Of a stretch of DNA of 40,833 nt, positions 23,149-29,148 are shown one piece after another. The notes beneath the pieces were generated by a model. The model saw only the letters and a list, made by a program, of their open reading frames with translations, did not search any database and was not told where the DNA came from. Each line of letters begins with the position of its first letter. The stretch's first letter is position 1. The stretch lies in the IMG/VR virus record IMGVR_UViG_2534682161_000025; one strand, given 5' to 3'. Both the position numbers and the translations under genes were made by a program. The DNA comes from a virus (Duplodnaviria; Heunggongvirae; Uroviricota; Caudoviricetes).

Positions 23149-23441
23149 TCCTGTTCACTGGCCTCTTTGGCCATCTTCAAATACTGTTCAGGGCAATGCG
23201 CCATAACGCGCTGAAACAGTTCCAGCGCCAGATTGCGTTGCCCCTCATTAAATGCCATTGCCATAGCATCCATCGGAGAGATAGCGGAAAACACCCGGCC
23301 TTTCTCCAGCACAGACCAGACAACGCGACGCCCCTGTTCACTGCTCATGACAAAGCGAATGTCATCAATTTCACGTTGTGCCATGTCACGTTGCTTACGG
23401 GCGTTTTCTTCTTTCAGTTGATCGTCTTCGTAATCTGTCAT
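23145..23441 (-). CDS. Hypothetical small acidic head-module protein (98 aa)
   Basis: ATGA-coupled to portal stop and scaffold start. Confidence 0.5.
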   Translation of the reverse strand: MTDYEDDQLKEENARKQRDMAQREIDDIRFVMSSEQGRRVVWSVLEKGRVFSAISPMDAMAMAFNEGQRNLALELFQRVMAHCPEQYLKMAKEASEQE

Positions 23442-25117
23442 TGTGATTGCCCACCCTGACCACTAACTGCATTCGCCATAGCTGACAAAACACTCGGATC
23501 CGAAGTTTTAGCTTCGCTTAGCGTCTTGGCACCCTGTGCCGCCGCCATCCCCATCTCCATCATTTGTTGCTGCTGTTGTTGCTGTGCCCGTTGCTGGCGA
23601 GCCTGCTCAACCTGTTCCTGCGGAACAATGACGGTTGGAGACACTCCGGACATATCAGCGAATGCATCGATTGCCTGATCAACGTTGAGTTTGTCGAGAG
23701 CTTCTGGTTTCGCTTGCGCAAGTTGACCAATGAAGTTGACCGTAGACGCCAGACTGGACAGGCCGATAGACTTCTGCGCCTGAGCCATGACGGAAATGTA
23801 TTCGACCTTCAGGGGCATACCTTCCATCGCGTCAGGCGGGGGCGGCAGCATGTTTTTACGCACCATCATCGAGAAAGCGCGGTCAATGAGAGGATTAAGA
23901 CATTCGTCGTTCAGACGCTCCAGAACCGGCCCCAACATCAGAAGTTTTTCTTCTTTCATTTCGATCACCGCTTCAACAGGCATCGAACGGGTATTGATGT
24001 TCTGCAACATCATGAACAGATCGACAAAGTAGGCACTGTTAATGATTTGACGAGTGTCCTGAATGTCTGCCACCAGATCTGCTGTACTGGGGTTAACCAG
24101 ATAAGCAGGCCTGAAACCATCCTGACCAGTAATCTGATCGATATACGTGATGTCGCCAGGAAGAAGGGAGGCGCGCTGATTCTTGAGGGAAGTCGGAGCA
24201 ATCATCGGCGGATTGGTGGCTTTATCAATCAACTGCGACTTGCGCTTCTGGAGAAGCTGCAATGCCTTAACAGGTCCAAGCGCCAGCATACCCGGGCATG
24301 ATGATCCATAAACATCTTCGCCGTTAACTTCCCAGCGCGGAGCCATAATTGGAAACTCATCGAATCCTGACTCACGCAACAACTTGTCGTTATCACCGCC
24401 AACCTCGTAATAAACCGATTTGAATGGCTTGTTCTTGCTATCCAGCTTCGATGTATCGCGGTCAATGTTCGGGTAAACCGAATGCATCACTTCAATCCAC
24501 TTCTCGTAGGTGCCGCTTTCCCACATGCTTTTTACGGATTCGCTGACGTTATTTAGCCCGAACTCCTGAACAAGCTGACGAACAGTCATAGAGAACTTGC
24601 GAAAACAGGTGTCCACACTGCCACGAGGTGAGTTAGCCAGGTAGTAACTGCCTATCGGGAATGGCATTGTGCGAATGATGTCATCGTCATCCTCCAGTAC
24701 CGCCATTGCACCAGTGCTGTATGTGCCGAGGCTTCCGTATAACTGCGGCAGCGACTGATAGAGATTCGACTTATTGAACATATCGTTCATGCGGTTCTGC
24801 ACCGCCTCAAGCCACAACTTAACAGGGCCATAATCCATCATTTCAGGATCTGGCGTAGCCAGGCGAAACCACGGACGCGCGGGGCTTGTGATGCCTGACA
24901 TCATGCCGCTGGCGAGAGTGCGCGCCGCCATAGTCCCGGTCGAATCAATAATGCGTGTATTGCGTCGATCGTTACGGTTGACCTCAGAAGTCAGAAAGCG
25001 GGAACCACGCGGGTTGATGTAATCACTCAACTCGCGCCAGTGCGGCTCGAACGACTGACGCTCGCTTTCAAGTTGTGCGAACTGTTTGTTCAATCGCTCT
25101 TTAGTTGTTTCCGCCAT
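23438..25117 (-). CDS. Portal (head-to-tail connector), T7 gp8-like podovirus type
   Basis: 559 aa; Q-rich/Ala-Met-rich C-terminus (QQRAQQQQQQQMMEMGMAAAQGA) and N-terminal region resemble the T7 connector; GGAG SD. Confidence 0.7.
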   Translation of the reverse strand: MAETTKERLNKQFAQLESERQSFEPHWRELSDYINPRGSRFLTSEVNRNDRRNTRIIDSTGTMAARTLASGMMSGITSPARPWFRLATPDPEMMDYGPVKLWLEAVQNRMNDMFNKSNLYQSLPQLYGSLGTYSTGAMAVLEDDDDIIRTMPFPIGSYYLANSPRGSVDTCFRKFSMTVRQLVQEFGLNNVSESVKSMWESGTYEKWIEVMHSVYPNIDRDTSKLDSKNKPFKSVYYEVGGDNDKLLRESGFDEFPIMAPRWEVNGEDVYGSSCPGMLALGPVKALQLLQKRKSQLIDKATNPPMIAPTSLKNQRASLLPGDITYIDQITGQDGFRPAYLVNPSTADLVADIQDTRQIINSAYFVDLFMMLQNINTRSMPVEAVIEMKEEKLLMLGPVLERLNDECLNPLIDRAFSMMVRKNMLPPPPDAMEGMPLKVEYISVMAQAQKSIGLSSLASTVNFIGQLAQAKPEALDKLNVDQAIDAFADMSGVSPTVIVPQEQVEQARQQRAQQQQQQQMMEMGMAAAQGAKTLSEAKTSDPSVLSAMANAVSGQGGQSQ

Positions 25118-25131
25118 TTCAATGACTCCGG

Positions 25132-25338
25132 TTACTGACCAAGCAGCGTTTTACCGCTGGTATTAGCGGTTGATGTGTCACCCTGAGAACCGGTAAGCAG
25201 CGTAGAACTACGACCAGCAGCAGCGCGACGGCGACGTGTTTCTTCGTCGCGGGCATCAACAACGGCGGCATCCTGCTCCTGTGGTGCTGCCTGAACTTCT
25301 GGTGTTGCAGGCACTGATGGTGAGCTACCCATGCACAT
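25132..25338 (-). CDS. Hypothetical small protein (68 aa)
   Basis: ATG preceded by CGGAGTCATTGAT, nearly the same initiation region as the portal gene (CGGAGTCATTGAA). Confidence 0.4.
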   Translation of the reverse strand: MCMGSSPSVPATPEVQAAPQEQDAAVVDARDEETRRRRAAAGRSSTLLTGSQGDTSTANTSGKTLLGQ

Positions 25339-25428
25339 ATCAATGACTCCGTACGCAATTAAATTATTACCAATTTAACCACATATGATTTATTTATCGT
25401 AGACAGTTGACATTTAACGCACGAATTA

Positions 25429-25443
25429 TTACCTTTCAGGTAA
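25429..25443. promoter_or_regulatory. Dyad site TTACC-tttca-GGTAA (site C), preceded by TTGACA
   Basis: AATTATTACCTTTCAGGTAA; TTGACA at 25407..25412; heads the plus-strand tRNA island. Confidence 0.45.
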
Positions 25444-25765
25444 GCAGAGAGTGCATTCCTGTTATTAACCTGACTGGCTTGTCGTTAAATTGAACAGGTG
25501 GAGTGAGATTTTATTTTGAGCAGTACGGCGTATGGCACATGCGCCGATAGCGGTCTGGATACGTTTAATGGGCACCCTCCCTTGCTCGGGCAAACGAACC
25601 AGGTAGCCGGAATGTGCAAGTCGAGCGGTTTTATTCCGCGCACGGGGATTCACCATCCCGGCGATTCGGTGTGACGCCTCGGAAGAGACGAGGGTGCAAC
25701 GATGAGAGCATTTATGGAGCCGCGACAAAGTGTGGCGCCTTAACAGGCTAAGTGCTCTCAGCGTT

Positions 25766-25842
25766 GTGGCATTAGCTCAGTTGGACAGAGCAACCGCCTT
25801 CTAAGCGGTCGGTCGCAGGTTCGAATCCTGCATGCCACGCCA
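25766..25842 (+). tRNA. tRNA-Arg (anticodon UCU, reads AGA), phage-encoded
   Basis: 77 nt; 7-bp acceptor stem GTGGCAT/ATGCCAC, D-arm GCTC/GAGC, anticodon loop CTTCTAA, T-arm GCAGG-TTCGAAT-CCTGC, encoded CCA; related to but distinct from host argU. Confidence 0.85.
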
Positions 25843-25886
25843 GAATCACGCCTAAGGACCGTGATGCCAGAAGTTCCAGGGGCTTG

Positions 25887-25927
25887 GCGGTGATGGTTTC
25901 CCTTGAAGGACTATCACCGCCCTTTTT
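25887..25927 (+). terminator. Intrinsic terminator after the tRNA
   Basis: ggcggtgat...atcaccgcc stem followed by CTTTTT. Confidence 0.5.
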
Positions 25928-26045
25928 ACAGCAGGACGCCATTGCGATGGCTTCATGCTGTAAACCAGTACAGCCACGGAAGGCATAACTCATTGCTTCC
26001 AGTTCGCCCGGTTCGCCGGGCATTTTTTTAAGGTGAGATTAGACT

Positions 26046-26417
26046 ATGAGTGACAAAGACATTGAATCTGAAATTCAGGCTAAAGGTTTAGCCGCGCCGC
26101 GCGTTACGCCAGACCATATCGAGAGTATTATTGCTCAGGAGGCATATTTCACAGCAGAAGATGGTATCTTTGGCGTAGCCATAAAAGCGAAACATACTGG
26201 CGGAGAGGTAAACTACCAGCCGCACGAATCACTTTCTCTGCTGACGTTCTGCGTTCTGGTGCTGCGCAATGGCTTCACCGTCACCGGAGAGAGCGCCTGT
26301 GCAAGCCCGGAAAACTTTGATGCGGAAATTGGTCGGAAGATTGCCCGGCAGAATGCTGTAAACAAAATCTGGATGCTTGAAGGTTACTTGCTGAAGCAGA
26401 AGTTAAGCGAGCAATAA
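26046..26417 (+). CDS. Conserved phage protein, possibly N4 Gp49 / Sf6 gp66 family; moron
   Basis: 123 aa; ATG with AGGTGAGA SD; family assignment from memory of similar prophage proteins, not verified. Confidence 0.6.
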   Translation: MSDKDIESEIQAKGLAAPRVTPDHIESIIAQEAYFTAEDGIFGVAIKAKHTGGEVNYQPHESLSLLTFCVLVLRNGFTVTGESACASPENFDAEIGRKIARQNAVNKIWMLEGYLLKQKLSEQ

Positions 26418-26507: not shown

Positions 26508-27983
26508 TTAAGCATAGGGATCGTAATCTGTAATGGCCTTGCCTTGCTGGTTCTGCTGCCCGGGAATTCGCAGACGCTTAGACACAGGGAACGCAAACGT
26601 CAGCAGTAGCGCATCGCCTTTACCCGGCGAACGCCCAAGCCGCTCCTTGATATCTTCCTTCGGTTCGATAACGATTTTACCGTCCACTCGAACTTTGTAC
26701 TCTGCCGCCGACAGGTCGTCCGCTGTTTCCTGGTCATCCAGCATGCCGCCCAGCCTCAGCCATGTCTTGCATGAGTTGAACATCTCCCCACGCTTGTTGA
26801 GCATCTGCGGGTCAGTAGACGCGCCACCGAACGGAACAAGTTGCCATGTGCGCCCCCAACCGTCACCGATTGACTTCAGCCCGGTACCGTAACCGAAGTC
26901 GATGAACACCGCGTCAGCCTGATACTGGTCTTCAAAGTCAGCGATACGCTTCGCCATAATCAGATCATCAGTGGTCTTGTTGCCGGTCCACAGCACCTTA
27001 CTATGCAGCCCCTGCCGCAGGTATATCACAGCGTCATCAACGCCGGAGTATGCCGGGTCAACGCCGATTATCACCGGAGCATGTGCAACCTGCGCAGCGG
27101 TTACCACCCGTTTCATTGCCTCGTCAGTAAGTCCGGTAGGGATAAACTGCAATTCAGATGCATCCGGGAATATGCCGCGCACACGGATTTTAACGAAGTC
27201 GCTGTCTTCCCCGTAGTCATCAACCCATTTCTGCAACTGCTGTTTGTTAGTGCCTTCCACCGTCCGGCTGTCAATCTGCGCAGTTTTCCAGCGGTGTTTA
27301 TATTTGCGGAAACATTCGCGGAAACGCCCGGTGTTACGTGTAGGGTTTCCGAACGCCACCCAGATAATCTCAGTGTCTTCGTCCGTAAGCGCACCCTCAG
27401 CAACTTCCCACACCAGATCCGCAATGTTCGACGCTTCATCGAATACCACGATGATGCGTTTGCGCTCGTTGTGTAGTCCGGCGAATGCCTCAGTGTTGTG
27501 CTCAGACCAGGGGATTGCGTCAGCTCGCCACCGCTTGTCGTGCCCAGGATCATTGCTGTACATCGCGGTAGCGGTACAGGTAAACCAGTCTTTCGTGATA
27601 GCAAGGTTCGACCACTTGATAATTTCCGGCCAGGTCTTCGTTCGTAGCTGGTTGTCGGTGTTGGCGGTCACCACGACCTTACAATCCTCGCAAGTGGACA
27701 TGCCCCAGTTGATCAGCATTGAGATGAATGCGGATTTACCAATACCGTGACCAGAAGCGCGTGCCAGCATAAGCGGCTGATAGCGCGTCGCTGGATTCTG
27801 CAGGTGATCACGTATCTCTCGGAACGCATCAGCCTGCCACTGACGTGGGCCGGTAGCATGTGCCAGTTCAGTCCCTTCTTCCCCCCACGGGAACGCATAG
27901 AGGGCATAGCCAAGCGGATCGTGAGTGAACCCTGCAATATCCTCGATCAACTGCTCTTCAGGAGATAACGCTGTATCTGTCAC
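26508..27983 (-). CDS. Terminase large subunit
   Basis: 491 aa; Walker A-like GHGIGKS near the N-terminus; GTG start overlapping small-subunit stop (GTGA). Confidence 0.8.
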   Translation of the reverse strand: MTDTALSPEEQLIEDIAGFTHDPLGYALYAFPWGEEGTELAHATGPRQWQADAFREIRDHLQNPATRYQPLMLARASGHGIGKSAFISMLINWGMSTCEDCKVVVTANTDNQLRTKTWPEIIKWSNLAITKDWFTCTATAMYSNDPGHDKRWRADAIPWSEHNTEAFAGLHNERKRIIVVFDEASNIADLVWEVAEGALTDEDTEIIWVAFGNPTRNTGRFRECFRKYKHRWKTAQIDSRTVEGTNKQQLQKWVDDYGEDSDFVKIRVRGIFPDASELQFIPTGLTDEAMKRVVTAAQVAHAPVIIGVDPAYSGVDDAVIYLRQGLHSKVLWTGNKTTDDLIMAKRIADFEDQYQADAVFIDFGYGTGLKSIGDGWGRTWQLVPFGGASTDPQMLNKRGEMFNSCKTWLRLGGMLDDQETADDLSAAEYKVRVDGKIVIEPKEDIKERLGRSPGKGDALLLTFAFPVSKRLRIPGQQNQQGKAITDYDPYA

Positions 27984-28577
27984 TGATTACCATCCTGACG
28001 TTCTTTGAGTCGCTTCCTGGCTGCTGCTATGCGATCAGCAATTGTCACATTCACATTAACATCCAGACGTTCTTTGAACGCGTTGACATCAACATGCTTA
28101 CCAATCAGCTCAAGGTTCTTCACCTTGTCAGGCCATTTAATTTTTTTGAGGATTGTCTCTATCGAATCCTCGTTCATGTTCATGATGGTCGACGACAGAT
28201 CAAAGCCACTAAGCGTAGTGCGCCAGATTTTCGGCCACTCACGGATTGGTTTAAGGCTCCCATCGTCGTTGAGGATGTCGATCACGTCCATCTGGTCGAT
28301 CTCCACCAGGCGCATGAGAACGTAATCAGCACTGACGCGCATTCGTTTGTTGCGCTCCTCCATCAACTCGGCAATCCGTTTCTGAATGCGTTCATCGCGC
28401 ATCATGACACTGGCTTTAACTGCCGCTGTGTTTGGGGAGAATCCTGCGTTAATCGCTGCCTGAGTCTGGTTTTCAGGCGTTTTGATGTATGACTGGCAAT
28501 AAGCCTCCTGCATTGCTGTGAGCGGCTTAAATTGCGTTGATTTGCGTTTATAGGTTTTAGGTTCAGCAGGCATCATA
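27980..28577 (-). CDS. Terminase small subunit
   Basis: Start refined to ATGATG at 28577/28574 (track ORF extends through an upstream terminator); typical small-terminase helical N-terminal region. Confidence 0.65.
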
Positions 28578-28609
28578 ACCACCGTGGTAATAGTTACCGT
28601 TGTGGTAAT
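28577..28609. promoter_or_regulatory. Two dyad sites (TAACC-accgt-GGTAA and TTACC-gttgt-GGTAA) right upstream of terminase small
   Basis: Centres 18 bp apart; also readable as direct repeat ACTATTACCAC x2 on the minus strand; overlaps the start codon. Confidence 0.4.
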
Positions 28610-28620
28610 AGTACCATGCA

Positions 28621-28645
28621 AAATAAAGCCGCCATAGTTGGCGGC
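28621..28645 (-). terminator. Intrinsic terminator between early genes and terminase
   Basis: gccgcca-tagt-tggcggc hairpin followed on the minus strand by TTTATTT. Confidence 0.5.
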
Positions 28646-28686
28646 AGTATTCAAAATCCATCAAATTCATCATGCATAATCTACTC

Positions 28687-28698: not shown

Positions 28699-29042
28699 AC
28701 TATTAATTTCGTTTCATGCCAGCCTTTAGTCACCCAGCATTGCGAGTCACCATTACACGGGCATGAATTAACTGGAACTCTCTCGCCGCACTTACCGCAA
28801 CGTTTTCTGCTGATCGATTTTATACGCCCGCGCACGCGTGCATCATCCTGGCGGATCAGTAACGCGATGTATTCGCTCATTTCATACGGCGCACGACCAG
28901 GGCGACGGGCGGCACAGTTACGCTCCAGCATTTCCTGCTCCTGCTTATCCAGCACCAGTTCAATTTTGCGCTCACCGGCGGCGGACTGCCGAGCGCGCTG
29001 CGCGGCTTTGCGTTCTGCGGGGGATTTAGCCACGAATCGCAC
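28695..29042 (-). CDS. Cys-cluster (putative zinc-binding) basic protein; candidate late-gene regulator
   Basis: 115 aa from GTG; C-terminal CGKCGE...CPCNGDSQC cluster; basic N-terminus; last early gene before terminase. Confidence 0.5.
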   Translation of the reverse strand: MRFVAKSPAERKAAQRARQSAAGERKIELVLDKQEQEMLERNCAARRPGRAPYEMSEYIALLIRQDDARVRGRIKSISRKRCGKCGERVPVNSCPCNGDSQCWVTKGWHETKLIV

Positions 29043-29148
29043 TCCACGCCAGATTGATTAATGACTCCCAGGCAATATAAACCCGGATACCAGCAGCCAG
29101 GCCGAAACCAATCACCATGGCATAAAGCAGAGCGTTGCACTTGTTCAT
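29026..29148 (-). CDS. Possible 40-aa hydrophobic peptide
   Basis: ATG overlaps upstream stop as TAATG; single hydrophobic helix; overlaps the 5-prime end of the 115-aa ORF, so only one of the two starts may be real. Confidence 0.25.
   Translation of the reverse strand: MNKCNALLYAMVIGFGLAAGIRVYIAWESLINLAWSAIRG

What the first reader, a model, noticed from the sequence alone, without database searches (positions are those of the whole stretch)
25118..25352. Duplicated translation-initiation region upstream of the portal gene and the small gene before it
CGGAGTCATTGA(A/T)ATG occurs before both the portal start (25117) and the 68-aa ORF start (25338). This suggests a local duplication or shared translational control element and supports the 68-aa ORF being real.
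Basis: seen in the sequence. Interest (0 to 1): 0.22.

Follow-up and report, generated by a model that had tools for sequence, protein, structure and literature searches.

The report
Twin ribosome-binding sites before portal gene
Two neighbouring head genes of an E. coli prophage, a small conserved gene and the portal gene, begin with almost the same 16-base ribosome-binding stretch, but this occurs in only one narrow phage lineage and is otherwise ordinary.

Summary
On the minus strand, CGGAGTCATTGA(T/A)ATG occurs exactly twice, 221 nt apart, ending in the start codons of a 68-aa ORF (25338) and the portal gene (25117).

The window is a phiV10-like (epsilon15-like, Uetakevirus) prophage. The 68-aa ORF is a genuine and already annotated gene: PhiV10p06, epsilon15 gp3, PHROG 831. 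It always lies directly upstream of the portal gene, and dN/dS is 0.01-0.10. Its reality rests on this conservation, not on the repeat.

The repeat is not a conserved element. It exists only in the tight phiV10/Tyrion clade. It is absent from about 20 other lineages, which keep gp3, the portal gene and usually the 14-nt intergenic length. Within the clade the two copies mutate independently.

Both copies are ordinary, rather weak Shine-Dalgarno sites (GGAG, 8-nt spacer). I found no RNA structure, no Rfam match and no antisense partner.

Most likely the 14-nt gp3-portal spacer was overwritten once by a copy of gp3's own leader. It has since been kept by the general purifying selection seen on almost all initiation regions in these phages.

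Low interest.

The parts
25336..25351 (-). Repeat copy 1: CGGAGTCATTGATATG. It holds the Shine-Dalgarno GGAG, an 8-nt spacer and the ATG of the 68-aa gp3-like gene.
   Evidence: The same sequence is present in phiV10. The gp3-type spacer is related by descent to those of other lineages (eps15 GGAGCTATTGCTATG).
25115..25130 (-). Repeat copy 2: CGGAGTCATTGAAATG. It holds the Shine-Dalgarno GGAG, an 8-nt spacer and the ATG of the portal gene.
   Evidence: In other lineages the portal spacer is unrelated (eps15 GGAGTAGGCAGAGATG and others).
25118..25131 (-). The 14-nt intergenic spacer between the gp3 stop codon (TAA, 25134-25132) and the portal ATG. In this clade it is a near copy of the last 14 nt of the gp3 leader.
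   Evidence: 12/14 identical in the window and phiV10, 13/14 in Tyrion. The 14-nt length is kept in most relatives.
25132..25338 (-). The 68-aa gene, equivalent to PhiV10p06, epsilon15 gp3 and PHROG 831. Function unknown. Met1-Cys2, an RRRR patch and a C-terminal GKTLLG motif are invariant.
   Evidence: PHROG 831, E = 2.4e-36; dN/dS 0.01-0.10; 684 clusters of homologs, all named 'hypothetical'.
23438..25117 (-). Portal (head-to-tail connector) gene, 559 aa.
   Evidence: PF12236, E = 3.5e-187; PHROG 332.
25352..25445 (-). Highly conserved AT-rich leader and regulatory block upstream of gp3. It includes the palindrome TTACCTTTCAGGTAA (25429-25443) and two copies of GGTAATAATT.
   Evidence: near-invariant across genera; repeat D4; 12 copies of TTACC-N5-GGTAA in the window against 0.59 expected. 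The homologous site in the epsilon15 record is annotated as repressor and IHF binding sites.

Best explanation
These are two ordinary Shine-Dalgarno-type translation initiation regions that happen to be near copies of each other in one narrow phage lineage.

How they work, as read from the sequence and established knowledge of SD-led initiation:
- GGAG pairs with the 16S anti-SD sequence.
- An 8-nt A/T-rich spacer places the ATG in the P site.
- gp3 is the first gene behind a conserved operator/leader block.
- The portal ATG lies 14 nt after the gp3 stop codon. Ribosomes finishing gp3 can therefore reinitiate, or fresh 30S subunits can bind.

Origin (inferred): in the common ancestor of the phiV10/Tyrion clade, the 14-nt gp3-portal intergenic spacer was overwritten by a copy of the last 14 nt of the gp3 leader. 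The mechanism would be a short-tract copying event, either gene conversion or a template switch. It could have been seeded by the older shared GTA(A)CGGAG on the left and ATG on the right.

Since then the identity has persisted only because initiation regions in these phages are generally under strong purifying selection. Identity between the two sites is not itself selected.
For: 1. The repeat is exact and unique in the window.
2. It is the top pair among 1431 real initiation-region pairs in phiV10.
3. The shared part is the non-SD spacer TCATTGA, which SD consensus does not explain. The SD itself is a 4-bp GGAG at -6.1 kcal/mol, rank 37-38 of 53.
4. The gp3-side sequence belongs to a family of related gp3 leaders in other lineages (GGAGCTATTGCT, GGAGTTATCGCT, GGAGTATCGAT). 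The portal-side spacers of other lineages are unrelated and G/A-rich (TAGGCAGAG, CGCGCAGAG, TCTGAAGAG). This points to the direction gp3 to portal.
5. In this clade the SD-to-ATG spacing of the portal site changed from 9 to 8 nt, matching gp3, while the intergenic length stayed at 14 nt.
6. The repeat is confined to phiV10, Tyrion, L106 and L107 (portal at least 93% aa identical) and is absent from about 20 other lineages.
7. The copies drift independently. Examples are TCATGGA in the portal copy (L015/L146), TAATTGA in the gp3 copy (L163), GGGG in the portal copy (L106), and about 4 differences between the two copies in L107.
8. Control: between phiV10 and Tyrion, synonymous sites are half saturated (pS 0.42-0.77). 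Even so, 13 of 17 structural-gene initiation regions are 19-22/22 identical, so the retention of both copies is not special.
Against: - A single historical event cannot be proven. No intermediates with 85-93% portal identity were found.
- Some portal-side spacers elsewhere contain ATTGA (Buttiauxella/Hafnia GGGCTTATTGAATG) or GGAGTC...TGAA (Pseudocitrobacter). Part of the resemblance could therefore predate the clade or be convergent.
- About half of all initiation regions differ between phiV10 and epsilon15, so turnover of the portal spacer is not unusual in itself.
- Position -3 is A in both copies in phiV10 and T in both copies in Tyrion and L106. This could hint at repeated conversion or co-selection, although L107 has A in one copy and T in the other.
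- No expression data are available.
Confidence: 0.7

Rival explanations
1. Chance or convergent drift. Both spacers evolved independently under the same generic constraints (A/T-rich, unstructured, 8-nt spacing) and ended up identical without any copying.
For: The pair leads the runner-up among real initiation-region pairs by only 2 nt (12 against 10). Fragments of the motif (ATTGA, GGAGTC) occur in the portal spacers of unrelated lineages. Portal-side spacers turn over freely.
Against: Eight extra identical non-SD positions in adjacent genes have an expectation of about 0.01. The portal spacer of this clade is an outlier among portal spacers and looks like the gp3 type. It also adopts gp3's 8-nt spacing.
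Confidence: 0.2
2. A shared translational operator. A phage or host factor (a RegA-like protein or a small RNA) binds the common sequence and co-regulates gp3 and the portal, or the identical sites are selected to give equal, stoichiometric output.
For: The identity covers the ribosome landing site of two adjacent genes that are always linked. Both copies are retained between phiV10 and Tyrion despite pS of about 0.6. Position -3 changed in both copies in Tyrion.
Against: The repeat is absent in about 20 lineages with the same gene pair. Single-copy mutations are tolerated in nature, including in the SD. Retention is no better than for other initiation regions. Fold z-scores are not significant (+0.58 and -0.32), and there is no Rfam family. 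No complementary copy exists anywhere in the window.
Confidence: 0.06
3. An insertion or recombination scar. The direct repeats flank a 221-bp unit because gp3 was inserted as a moron with a target duplication, or because they act as a recombination joint that allows gp3 to be gained or lost.
For: The repeats bracket exactly one gene plus its leader. DNA homology to two Klebsiella phages breaks off at the gp3 start (query positions 1254 and 1270).
Against: gp3 is ancestral: it is present upstream of the portal in every lineage sampled, including those without the repeat and distant Cloacibacillus prophages. The predicted deletion junction is absent from IMG/VR. In E. coli genomes the best hits to that junction are all two-piece matches with gp3 intact. 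The Klebsiella phages do carry a diverged gp3 and lack the 12-mer.
Confidence: 0.03

Closest known systems
Canonical Shine-Dalgarno initiation regions with short-distance translational coupling in phage late operons
   Same: A GGAG motif lies 8 nt upstream of each ATG. The portal SD starts 2 nt after the gp3 stop codon, and the intergenic spacer is 14 nt. The Tyrion GenBank record already annotates a ribosome_binding_site before both genes.
   Different: The two sites also share the 7-nt non-SD spacer TCATTGA. This is unusual, being the top of 1431 pairs, but it is restricted to one lineage.
epsilon15 gp3 / PhiV10p06 / PHROG 831 (small protein of unknown function encoded directly upstream of the T7-type portal)
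   Same: The 68-aa ORF is 100% identical to PhiV10p06 and 88% identical to epsilon15 gp3. It matches PHROG 831 over its full length at E = 2.4e-36.
   Different: Nothing differs; it is a member of this family. The family has no Pfam or NCBIfam model and no assigned function.
T7 gp6.7 (DUF5476), a small virion protein ejected into the host, encoded upstream of the T7 portal gene
   Same: It is a small protein encoded upstream of a PF12236-type portal, with an N-terminus of Met-Cys followed by a Ser/Pro/Lys-rich stretch (MCFSPKIKTPK against MCMGSSPSVPATP).
   Different: There is no detectable homology. hhalign gives probability 1.7% over 9 residues only. T7 gp6.7 falls in a different PHROG (1391 against 831), and Pfam DUF5476 does not hit gp3. 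In T7, several genes separate gene 6.7 from gene 8.
Translational operators shared by several mRNAs (for example T4 RegA targets) - comparison from general knowledge
   Same: A common sequence overlaps the ribosome-binding site of more than one gene.
   Different: There is no conservation across relatives, no cognate factor and no structure, and the copies drift independently.
Short conserved 'boundary' sequences at gene junctions of mosaic lambdoid phages - comparison from general knowledge
   Same: A short repeat sits at gene boundaries, and a homology breakpoint with two Klebsiella phages lies at the gp3 start.
   Different: The 12-mer is not shared with those phages, and no recombinant or deletion products were found.

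Membership tests
Shine-Dalgarno-type translation initiation region | A purine-rich motif complementary to the 3' end of 16S rRNA | tested here: met
   GGAG in both copies. The duplex with ACCUCCUUA is -6.1 kcal/mol for each, rank 37-38 of 53 phiV10 genes.
Shine-Dalgarno-type translation initiation region | A spacing of about 5-10 nt to a start codon that opens a conserved reading frame | tested here: met
   An 8-nt spacer leads to ATG in both copies. The N-termini MC(M/I/V)G... and MAET.KE.L are conserved in relatives.
Shine-Dalgarno-type translation initiation region | Demonstrated ribosome binding or translation from the site | not testable with these tools
   No ribosome profiling, toeprinting or proteomic data were available.
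epsilon15 gp3 / PHROG 831 protein family | Full-length sequence similarity to the family profile | tested here: met
   PHROG 831: E = 2.4e-36, residues 1-68 against profile positions 3-70 of 70. 88% identity to epsilon15 gp3. 30 invariant columns in 13 diverse members.
epsilon15 gp3 / PHROG 831 protein family | A position directly upstream of a PF12236 portal gene | tested here: met
   True in the window and in 13 of the 15 genome loci. The other 2, the Cloacibacillus prophages, were not hit by tblastn and carry only a gp3-like ORF of similar architecture. Also true in the 4 further annotated phages whose gp3-portal junction was extracted, in unannotated Klebsiella phage Kp4865-1 by reading the sequence, and at all 12 loci (8 lineages) from the contig look-ups; at 11 of these the next gene has a PF12236 hit on record, at L200 the downstream 556-aa gene has no Pfam hit on record and is called portal from its N-terminus MAETEKERLL.
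T7 gp6.7 / DUF5476 | Sequence or profile similarity to gp6.7 | tested here: not met
   hhalign probability 1.7% over 9 aligned residues. No Pfam hit at E <= 1. Different PHROGs.
Conserved cis-regulatory translational operator | Conservation of the shared sequence at both sites across related genomes | tested here: not met
   Present only in the phiV10/Tyrion clade. The longest shared stretch is 5 nt or less in the 8 lineages. Repeat also absent from the about 12 lineages (epsilon15 shares only ACGGAG).
Conserved cis-regulatory translational operator | A defined RNA structure or a match to a known RNA family | tested here: not met
   Fold z-scores are +0.58 and -0.32 for the two 76-nt contexts and -1.85 for the 351-nt region. 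Rfam found only the nearby tRNA.
Target-site duplication / moron insertion scar | Related genomes that lack the insert and carry a single repeat copy | tested here: not met
   The deletion-junction 28-mer has 0 hits in IMG/VR. The best E. coli hits to the 90-nt junction are all two-piece matches spanning 311 nt, with gp3 intact. gp3 is present in all lineages sampled.

The most novel reading that the evidence does not exclude
The matched initiation regions are not neutral. In the phiV10/Tyrion clade, a micro-gene-conversion copied gp3's leader onto the portal gene and was fixed because it equalises translation of gp3 and the portal. This would imply that gp3 is a stoichiometric, so far unrecognised partner of the portal, perhaps a functional analogue of small virion proteins such as T7 gp6.7. 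Position -3 changed in both copies in Tyrion, and both copies are retained at pS of about 0.6. These facts are compatible with this reading, but general conservation of initiation regions explains them equally well.
Probability: 0.07. Interest if true: 0.3.

Novelty: already known. Interest (0 to 1): 0.07.

Why it matters
It matters very little. The result confirms that a small, easily overlooked gene upstream of the portal is real and widespread. That is useful for annotation, but the gene is already annotated in phiV10, epsilon15, Tyrion and RefSeq E. coli genomes. The repeat itself is a small example of how a short intergenic spacer can be overwritten by a neighbouring sequence. The analysis also shows that initiation regions in these phages are far more conserved than synonymous sites. 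No new regulatory principle is indicated. The gp3 protein family would deserve attention only if it turned out to be a portal-associated virion protein.

Tried and rejected
- Homology of gp3 to T7 gp6.7, a lead from memory based on the MC... N-terminus: rejected.
- Pfam, NCBIfam and PDB sequence searches for gp3: nothing. The best PDB E-value was 0.58.
- RNA structure or riboswitch/leader motif around either copy: no significant fold, and Rfam found only tRNA-Arg.
- A sigma-70 promoter on the gene strand upstream of gp3: none found by the simple scan.
- A trans-acting antisense partner or further copies of the 12-mer in the window: none. The near-match at 29058-29069 lies inside an ORF (28877..29140) and not at its start.
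- Repeat-mediated deletion of gp3: no junction in IMG/VR or in the E. coli genomes.
- A search for relatives of intermediate divergence. Two IMG/VR scans with the phiV10 and Tyrion portals returned almost only near-identical contigs. Only L106 and L107 added information.
- Literature. Two papers that mention epsilon15 contain nothing on gp3 of epsilon15. The original epsilon15 and phiV10 genome papers were not located in the library.
- The L107 portal translation in the tree is unreliable (apparent 50% identity, probably a frameshift in the contig). I placed L107 in the Tyrion clade from the tblastn result (96%).

Full report
**The observation**

On the minus strand the window reads ...TTAATTGCGTA CGGAGTCATTGAT ATG TGC ATG GGT... 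at 25351-25336, and ...GGT CAG TAA C CGGAGTCATTGAA ATG GCG GAA... at 25130-25115. The shared string is 12 exact bases (CGGAGTCATTGA), one mismatch at position -1, then ATG. The two copies are 221 nt apart (family D2).

A pattern search that allowed two mismatches found only these two sites on either strand. The expected count was 0.04, and no shuffle out of 100 gave two matches. The two ATGs open a 68-aa ORF (25132-25338) and a 559-aa ORF (23438-25117).

**What the locus is**

The window is a phiV10-like prophage of the genus Uetakevirus, the epsilon15-like podoviruses.
- The region is 99.1% identical to Escherichia phage phiV10 and 100% identical to a prophage in E. coli MFDS1019527.
- The 559-aa protein is the portal: PF12236, E = 3.5e-187, and PHROG 332.
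- The 68-aa ORF is already annotated as PhiV10p06, which the record notes as 'similar to epsilon15p03'. It corresponds to epsilon15 gp3, Tyrion gp04 and RefSeq WP_000335899.1.
- It matches PHROG 831 (unknown function) over its full length at E = 2.4e-36. It has no Pfam, NCBIfam or PDB relative.

**Is the 68-aa ORF real?**

Yes, and this does not depend on the repeat.
- A homolog lies immediately upstream of the portal gene in 13 of 15 loci from different species found with the portal as query. These include Scandinavium, Kluyvera, Citrobacter, Buttiauxella, Rahnella, Providencia and an Advenella MAG.
- The same holds in further phages from Klebsiella, Enterobacter and Salmonella.
- It also holds in eight additional lineages retrieved through a family search that found 684 clusters, all named 'hypothetical protein'.
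- Thirty of 68 columns are invariant in 13 diverse members: Met1, Cys2, an RRRR patch, ST.LT and a C-terminal GKTLLG.
- Pairwise dN/dS against nine relatives is 0.01-0.10. Of the 384 substitutions, 292 fall at third codon positions.
- Even Cloacibacillus prophages, whose portals are only 36-39% identical, carry an 80-aa ORF of the same architecture directly before the portal.

**Is the repeat conserved?**

No. I extracted the 24-30 nt before both start codons in every relative.
- The repeat is present in phiV10-type contigs; 146 of the 160 IMG/VR loci fetched in the two scans, which overlap in contigs, carry exactly the window's pair. It is also present in Enterobacter phage Tyrion, as ACGGAGTCATTGTTATG and ACGGAGTCATTGTCATG.
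- These all form one tight clade with portals at least 93% identical.
- Outside that clade it is absent. Epsilon15, SPN1S and Citrobacter have GGAGCTATTGCTATG before gp3 but GGAGTAGGCAGAGATG before the portal. Eleven other lineages show no repeat by eye either, and eight further lineages share at most 5 nt.
- Most of these lineages keep the 14-nt intergenic length and a GGAG or GGGAG motif, while the spacer between SD and ATG is free to vary.

**Behaviour within the clade**

The two copies change independently.
- One contig has TCATGGA in the portal copy only.
- One has TAATTGA in the gp3 copy only.
- Two have changed the first C of the portal copy.
- L106 has GGGG instead of GGAG in the portal copy.
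- L107 differs between its two copies at about four positions.

The only parallel change is at position -3. It is A in both copies in phiV10 and T in both in Tyrion and L106. L107, however, has A in the gp3 copy and T in the portal copy.

**A control for conservation**

phiV10 and Tyrion are 84% identical in gp3 DNA, and about 57% of synonymous sites differ. One could therefore argue that retaining both copies implies special constraint.

It does not. Across 17 structural genes, pS is 0.42-0.77. Even so, 13 of the 17 regions from -22 to -1 are 19-22/22 identical, including purely intergenic spacers before the major capsid gene, p11 and p13. The gp3 site (21/22) and the portal site (19/22) are typical.

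Against epsilon15, roughly half of the initiation regions have diverged, the portal's among them. The persistence of the repeat is thus explained by the general purifying selection on initiation regions in this phage group.

**What the sequence does**

Both copies offer only a 4-bp SD (GGAG). The duplex with the anti-SD is -6.1 kcal/mol, rank 37-38 of 53 phiV10 genes, and the spacer is 8 nt. The shared TCATTGA is not part of the SD consensus.
- Folding of the two 76-nt contexts and of the whole 351-nt segment gives energies no better than shuffled sequence (z = +0.58, -0.32 and -1.85).
- Rfam finds only the neighbouring tRNA-Arg.
- There is no complementary copy of the motif elsewhere in the window that could encode an antisense partner.

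gp3 is the first gene behind a strongly conserved leader/operator block. The portal ATG follows the gp3 stop by 14 nt here, and by only 1-5 nt in Rahnella, Klebsiella phi13.3 and Pectobacterium relatives. Translational coupling of the portal to gp3 is therefore plausible. That is inference from sequence, not a measurement.

**Origin of the repeat**

The gp3-side spacer of this clade (TCATTGAT) belongs to a recognisable family of gp3 leaders: CTATTGCT, TTATCGCT, TATCGAT and TTAATGCT. The portal-side spacer (TCATTGAA or TCATTGTC) is an outlier among portal spacers, which elsewhere are G/A-rich and unrelated.

In Tyrion the entire 14-nt intergenic spacer matches the last 14 nt of the gp3 leader at 13 of 14 positions. 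In the window the match is 12 of 14. The SD-to-ATG distance of the portal site shifted from 9 to 8 nt, the gp3 value, while the intergenic length stayed at 14 nt.

Both sites already shared GTA(A)CGGAG in all lineages. That microhomology could have seeded a short-tract conversion or a template switch. I consider a single copying event in the clade ancestor the most likely origin, at roughly two-thirds probability. Chance or convergent drift is the main alternative, for two reasons:
- Fragments such as ATTGA or GGAGTC...TGAA occur in the portal spacers of Buttiauxella/Hafnia and Pseudocitrobacter.
- The statistical excess over real initiation-region pairs is modest, 12 nt against a runner-up of 10 nt.

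**Rejected readings**

An insertion scar or recombination joint is unlikely.
- gp3 is ancestral to lineages with and without the repeat.
- The predicted deletion junction is absent from IMG/VR.
- In the 531 complete E. coli genomes that match the junction query, the best hits are all two-piece matches spanning 311 nt, with gp3 intact.

A resemblance of gp3 to T7 gp6.7 (both begin MC..S/P/K-rich) did not survive testing. hhalign gave a probability of 1.7%, and the two proteins fall in different PHROGs.

**Verdict**

The feature is real but ordinary. It consists of two annotated genes with annotated ribosome-binding sites that are near copies of each other in one narrow lineage. It is not a conserved control element, and the gene's reality was never in doubt once relatives are examined.

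Noticed in passing
window 25352-25445 (minus strand), palindrome at 25429-25443: The roughly 90 nt upstream of gp3 are almost invariant across genera in which synonymous sites are saturated (TTACCT.AAAGGTAATAATT ... GTCAATA.CCTACG.TAAATAA..CATATGTGGTTAAATTGGTAATAATTTAAT). The block holds two GGTAATAATT copies 62 nt apart. The homologous palindrome in the epsilon15 record is annotated as repressor and IHF binding sites, so the gp3-portal operon appears to sit directly behind a prophage-repressor operator.
   Followed up: partly
window-wide: 3177, 8819, 25429, 28576, 28594, 31618, 31680, 33650, 33987, 34035, 34747, 34809: The operator-like palindrome TTACC-N5-GGTAA occurs 12 times with up to 1 mismatch, against 0.59 expected. 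Copies cluster in the 31.6-34.8 kb part of the window; further copies lie near 28.6 kb (inside the 5' end of the small terminase ORF 27980-28654) and upstream of gp3. This fits the repressor sites annotated in epsilon15.
   Followed up: partly
window 25766-25842 (+) and 26046-26417 (+): A tRNA-Arg(TCT) gene and a Gp49/Sf6-gp66 family gene (PF13876) lie on the opposite strand between the large terminase gene and gp3. Relatives carry different cargo at this position (DUF551, DUF2829, other small ORFs), so it is a variable moron slot. The phiV10 CDS PhiV10p04 (the 83-aa ORF at 25772-26023, minus strand) overlaps the tRNA in antisense and is probably spurious.
   Followed up: partly
window 25525-25772: This stretch, just upstream of the tRNA-Arg on the + strand, is about 83% identical to unannotated DNA in lambdoid phages (mEp460, cdtI, 2H10) and in many E. 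coli genomes and plasmids (many of the 1,325 of 5,426 genomes that match some part of the 1.7-kb query; not counted for this stretch alone). ARAGORN found no tRNA and Rfam found no family there.
   Followed up: no
window 25332-25338; alignment A1: The gp3 family has an invariant Met1-Cys2 N-terminus in all Enterobacterales members, followed by a Ser/Pro/Lys-rich stretch. T7 gp6.7 begins in a similar way (MCFSPKIKTPK) without detectable homology. This could point to an N-terminal Cys modification, which I did not investigate.
   Followed up: partly
L098:2230-2475 and L099:2244-2480 (Cloacibacillus MAG prophages): An 80-aa ORF (MGGLFGG...RKRRGYASTM...GKKQKLGE) with the same architecture as gp3 ends 1-2 nt before a portal gene that is only 36-39% identical. 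The small-gene/portal pair is therefore much older than the Enterobacterales phages.
   Followed up: partly
phiV10 (L105) against Tyrion (L187), structural genes: Translation initiation regions (-22 to -1) are 19-22/22 identical in 13 of 17 gene pairs, although 42-77% of synonymous sites differ. This includes spacers that lie wholly in intergenic DNA, and is a clear example of strong selection on initiation regions.
   Followed up: yes
window 23438-23600 (portal C-terminus): The portal ends in a glutamine-rich, low-complexity tail (QQRAQQQQQQQMMEMGMAAAQG...) that lies beyond the PF12236 domain. The peptide patterns differ in this region between phiV10 (QQQQMMEM) and Tyrion (QQQQQQAM).
   Followed up: no
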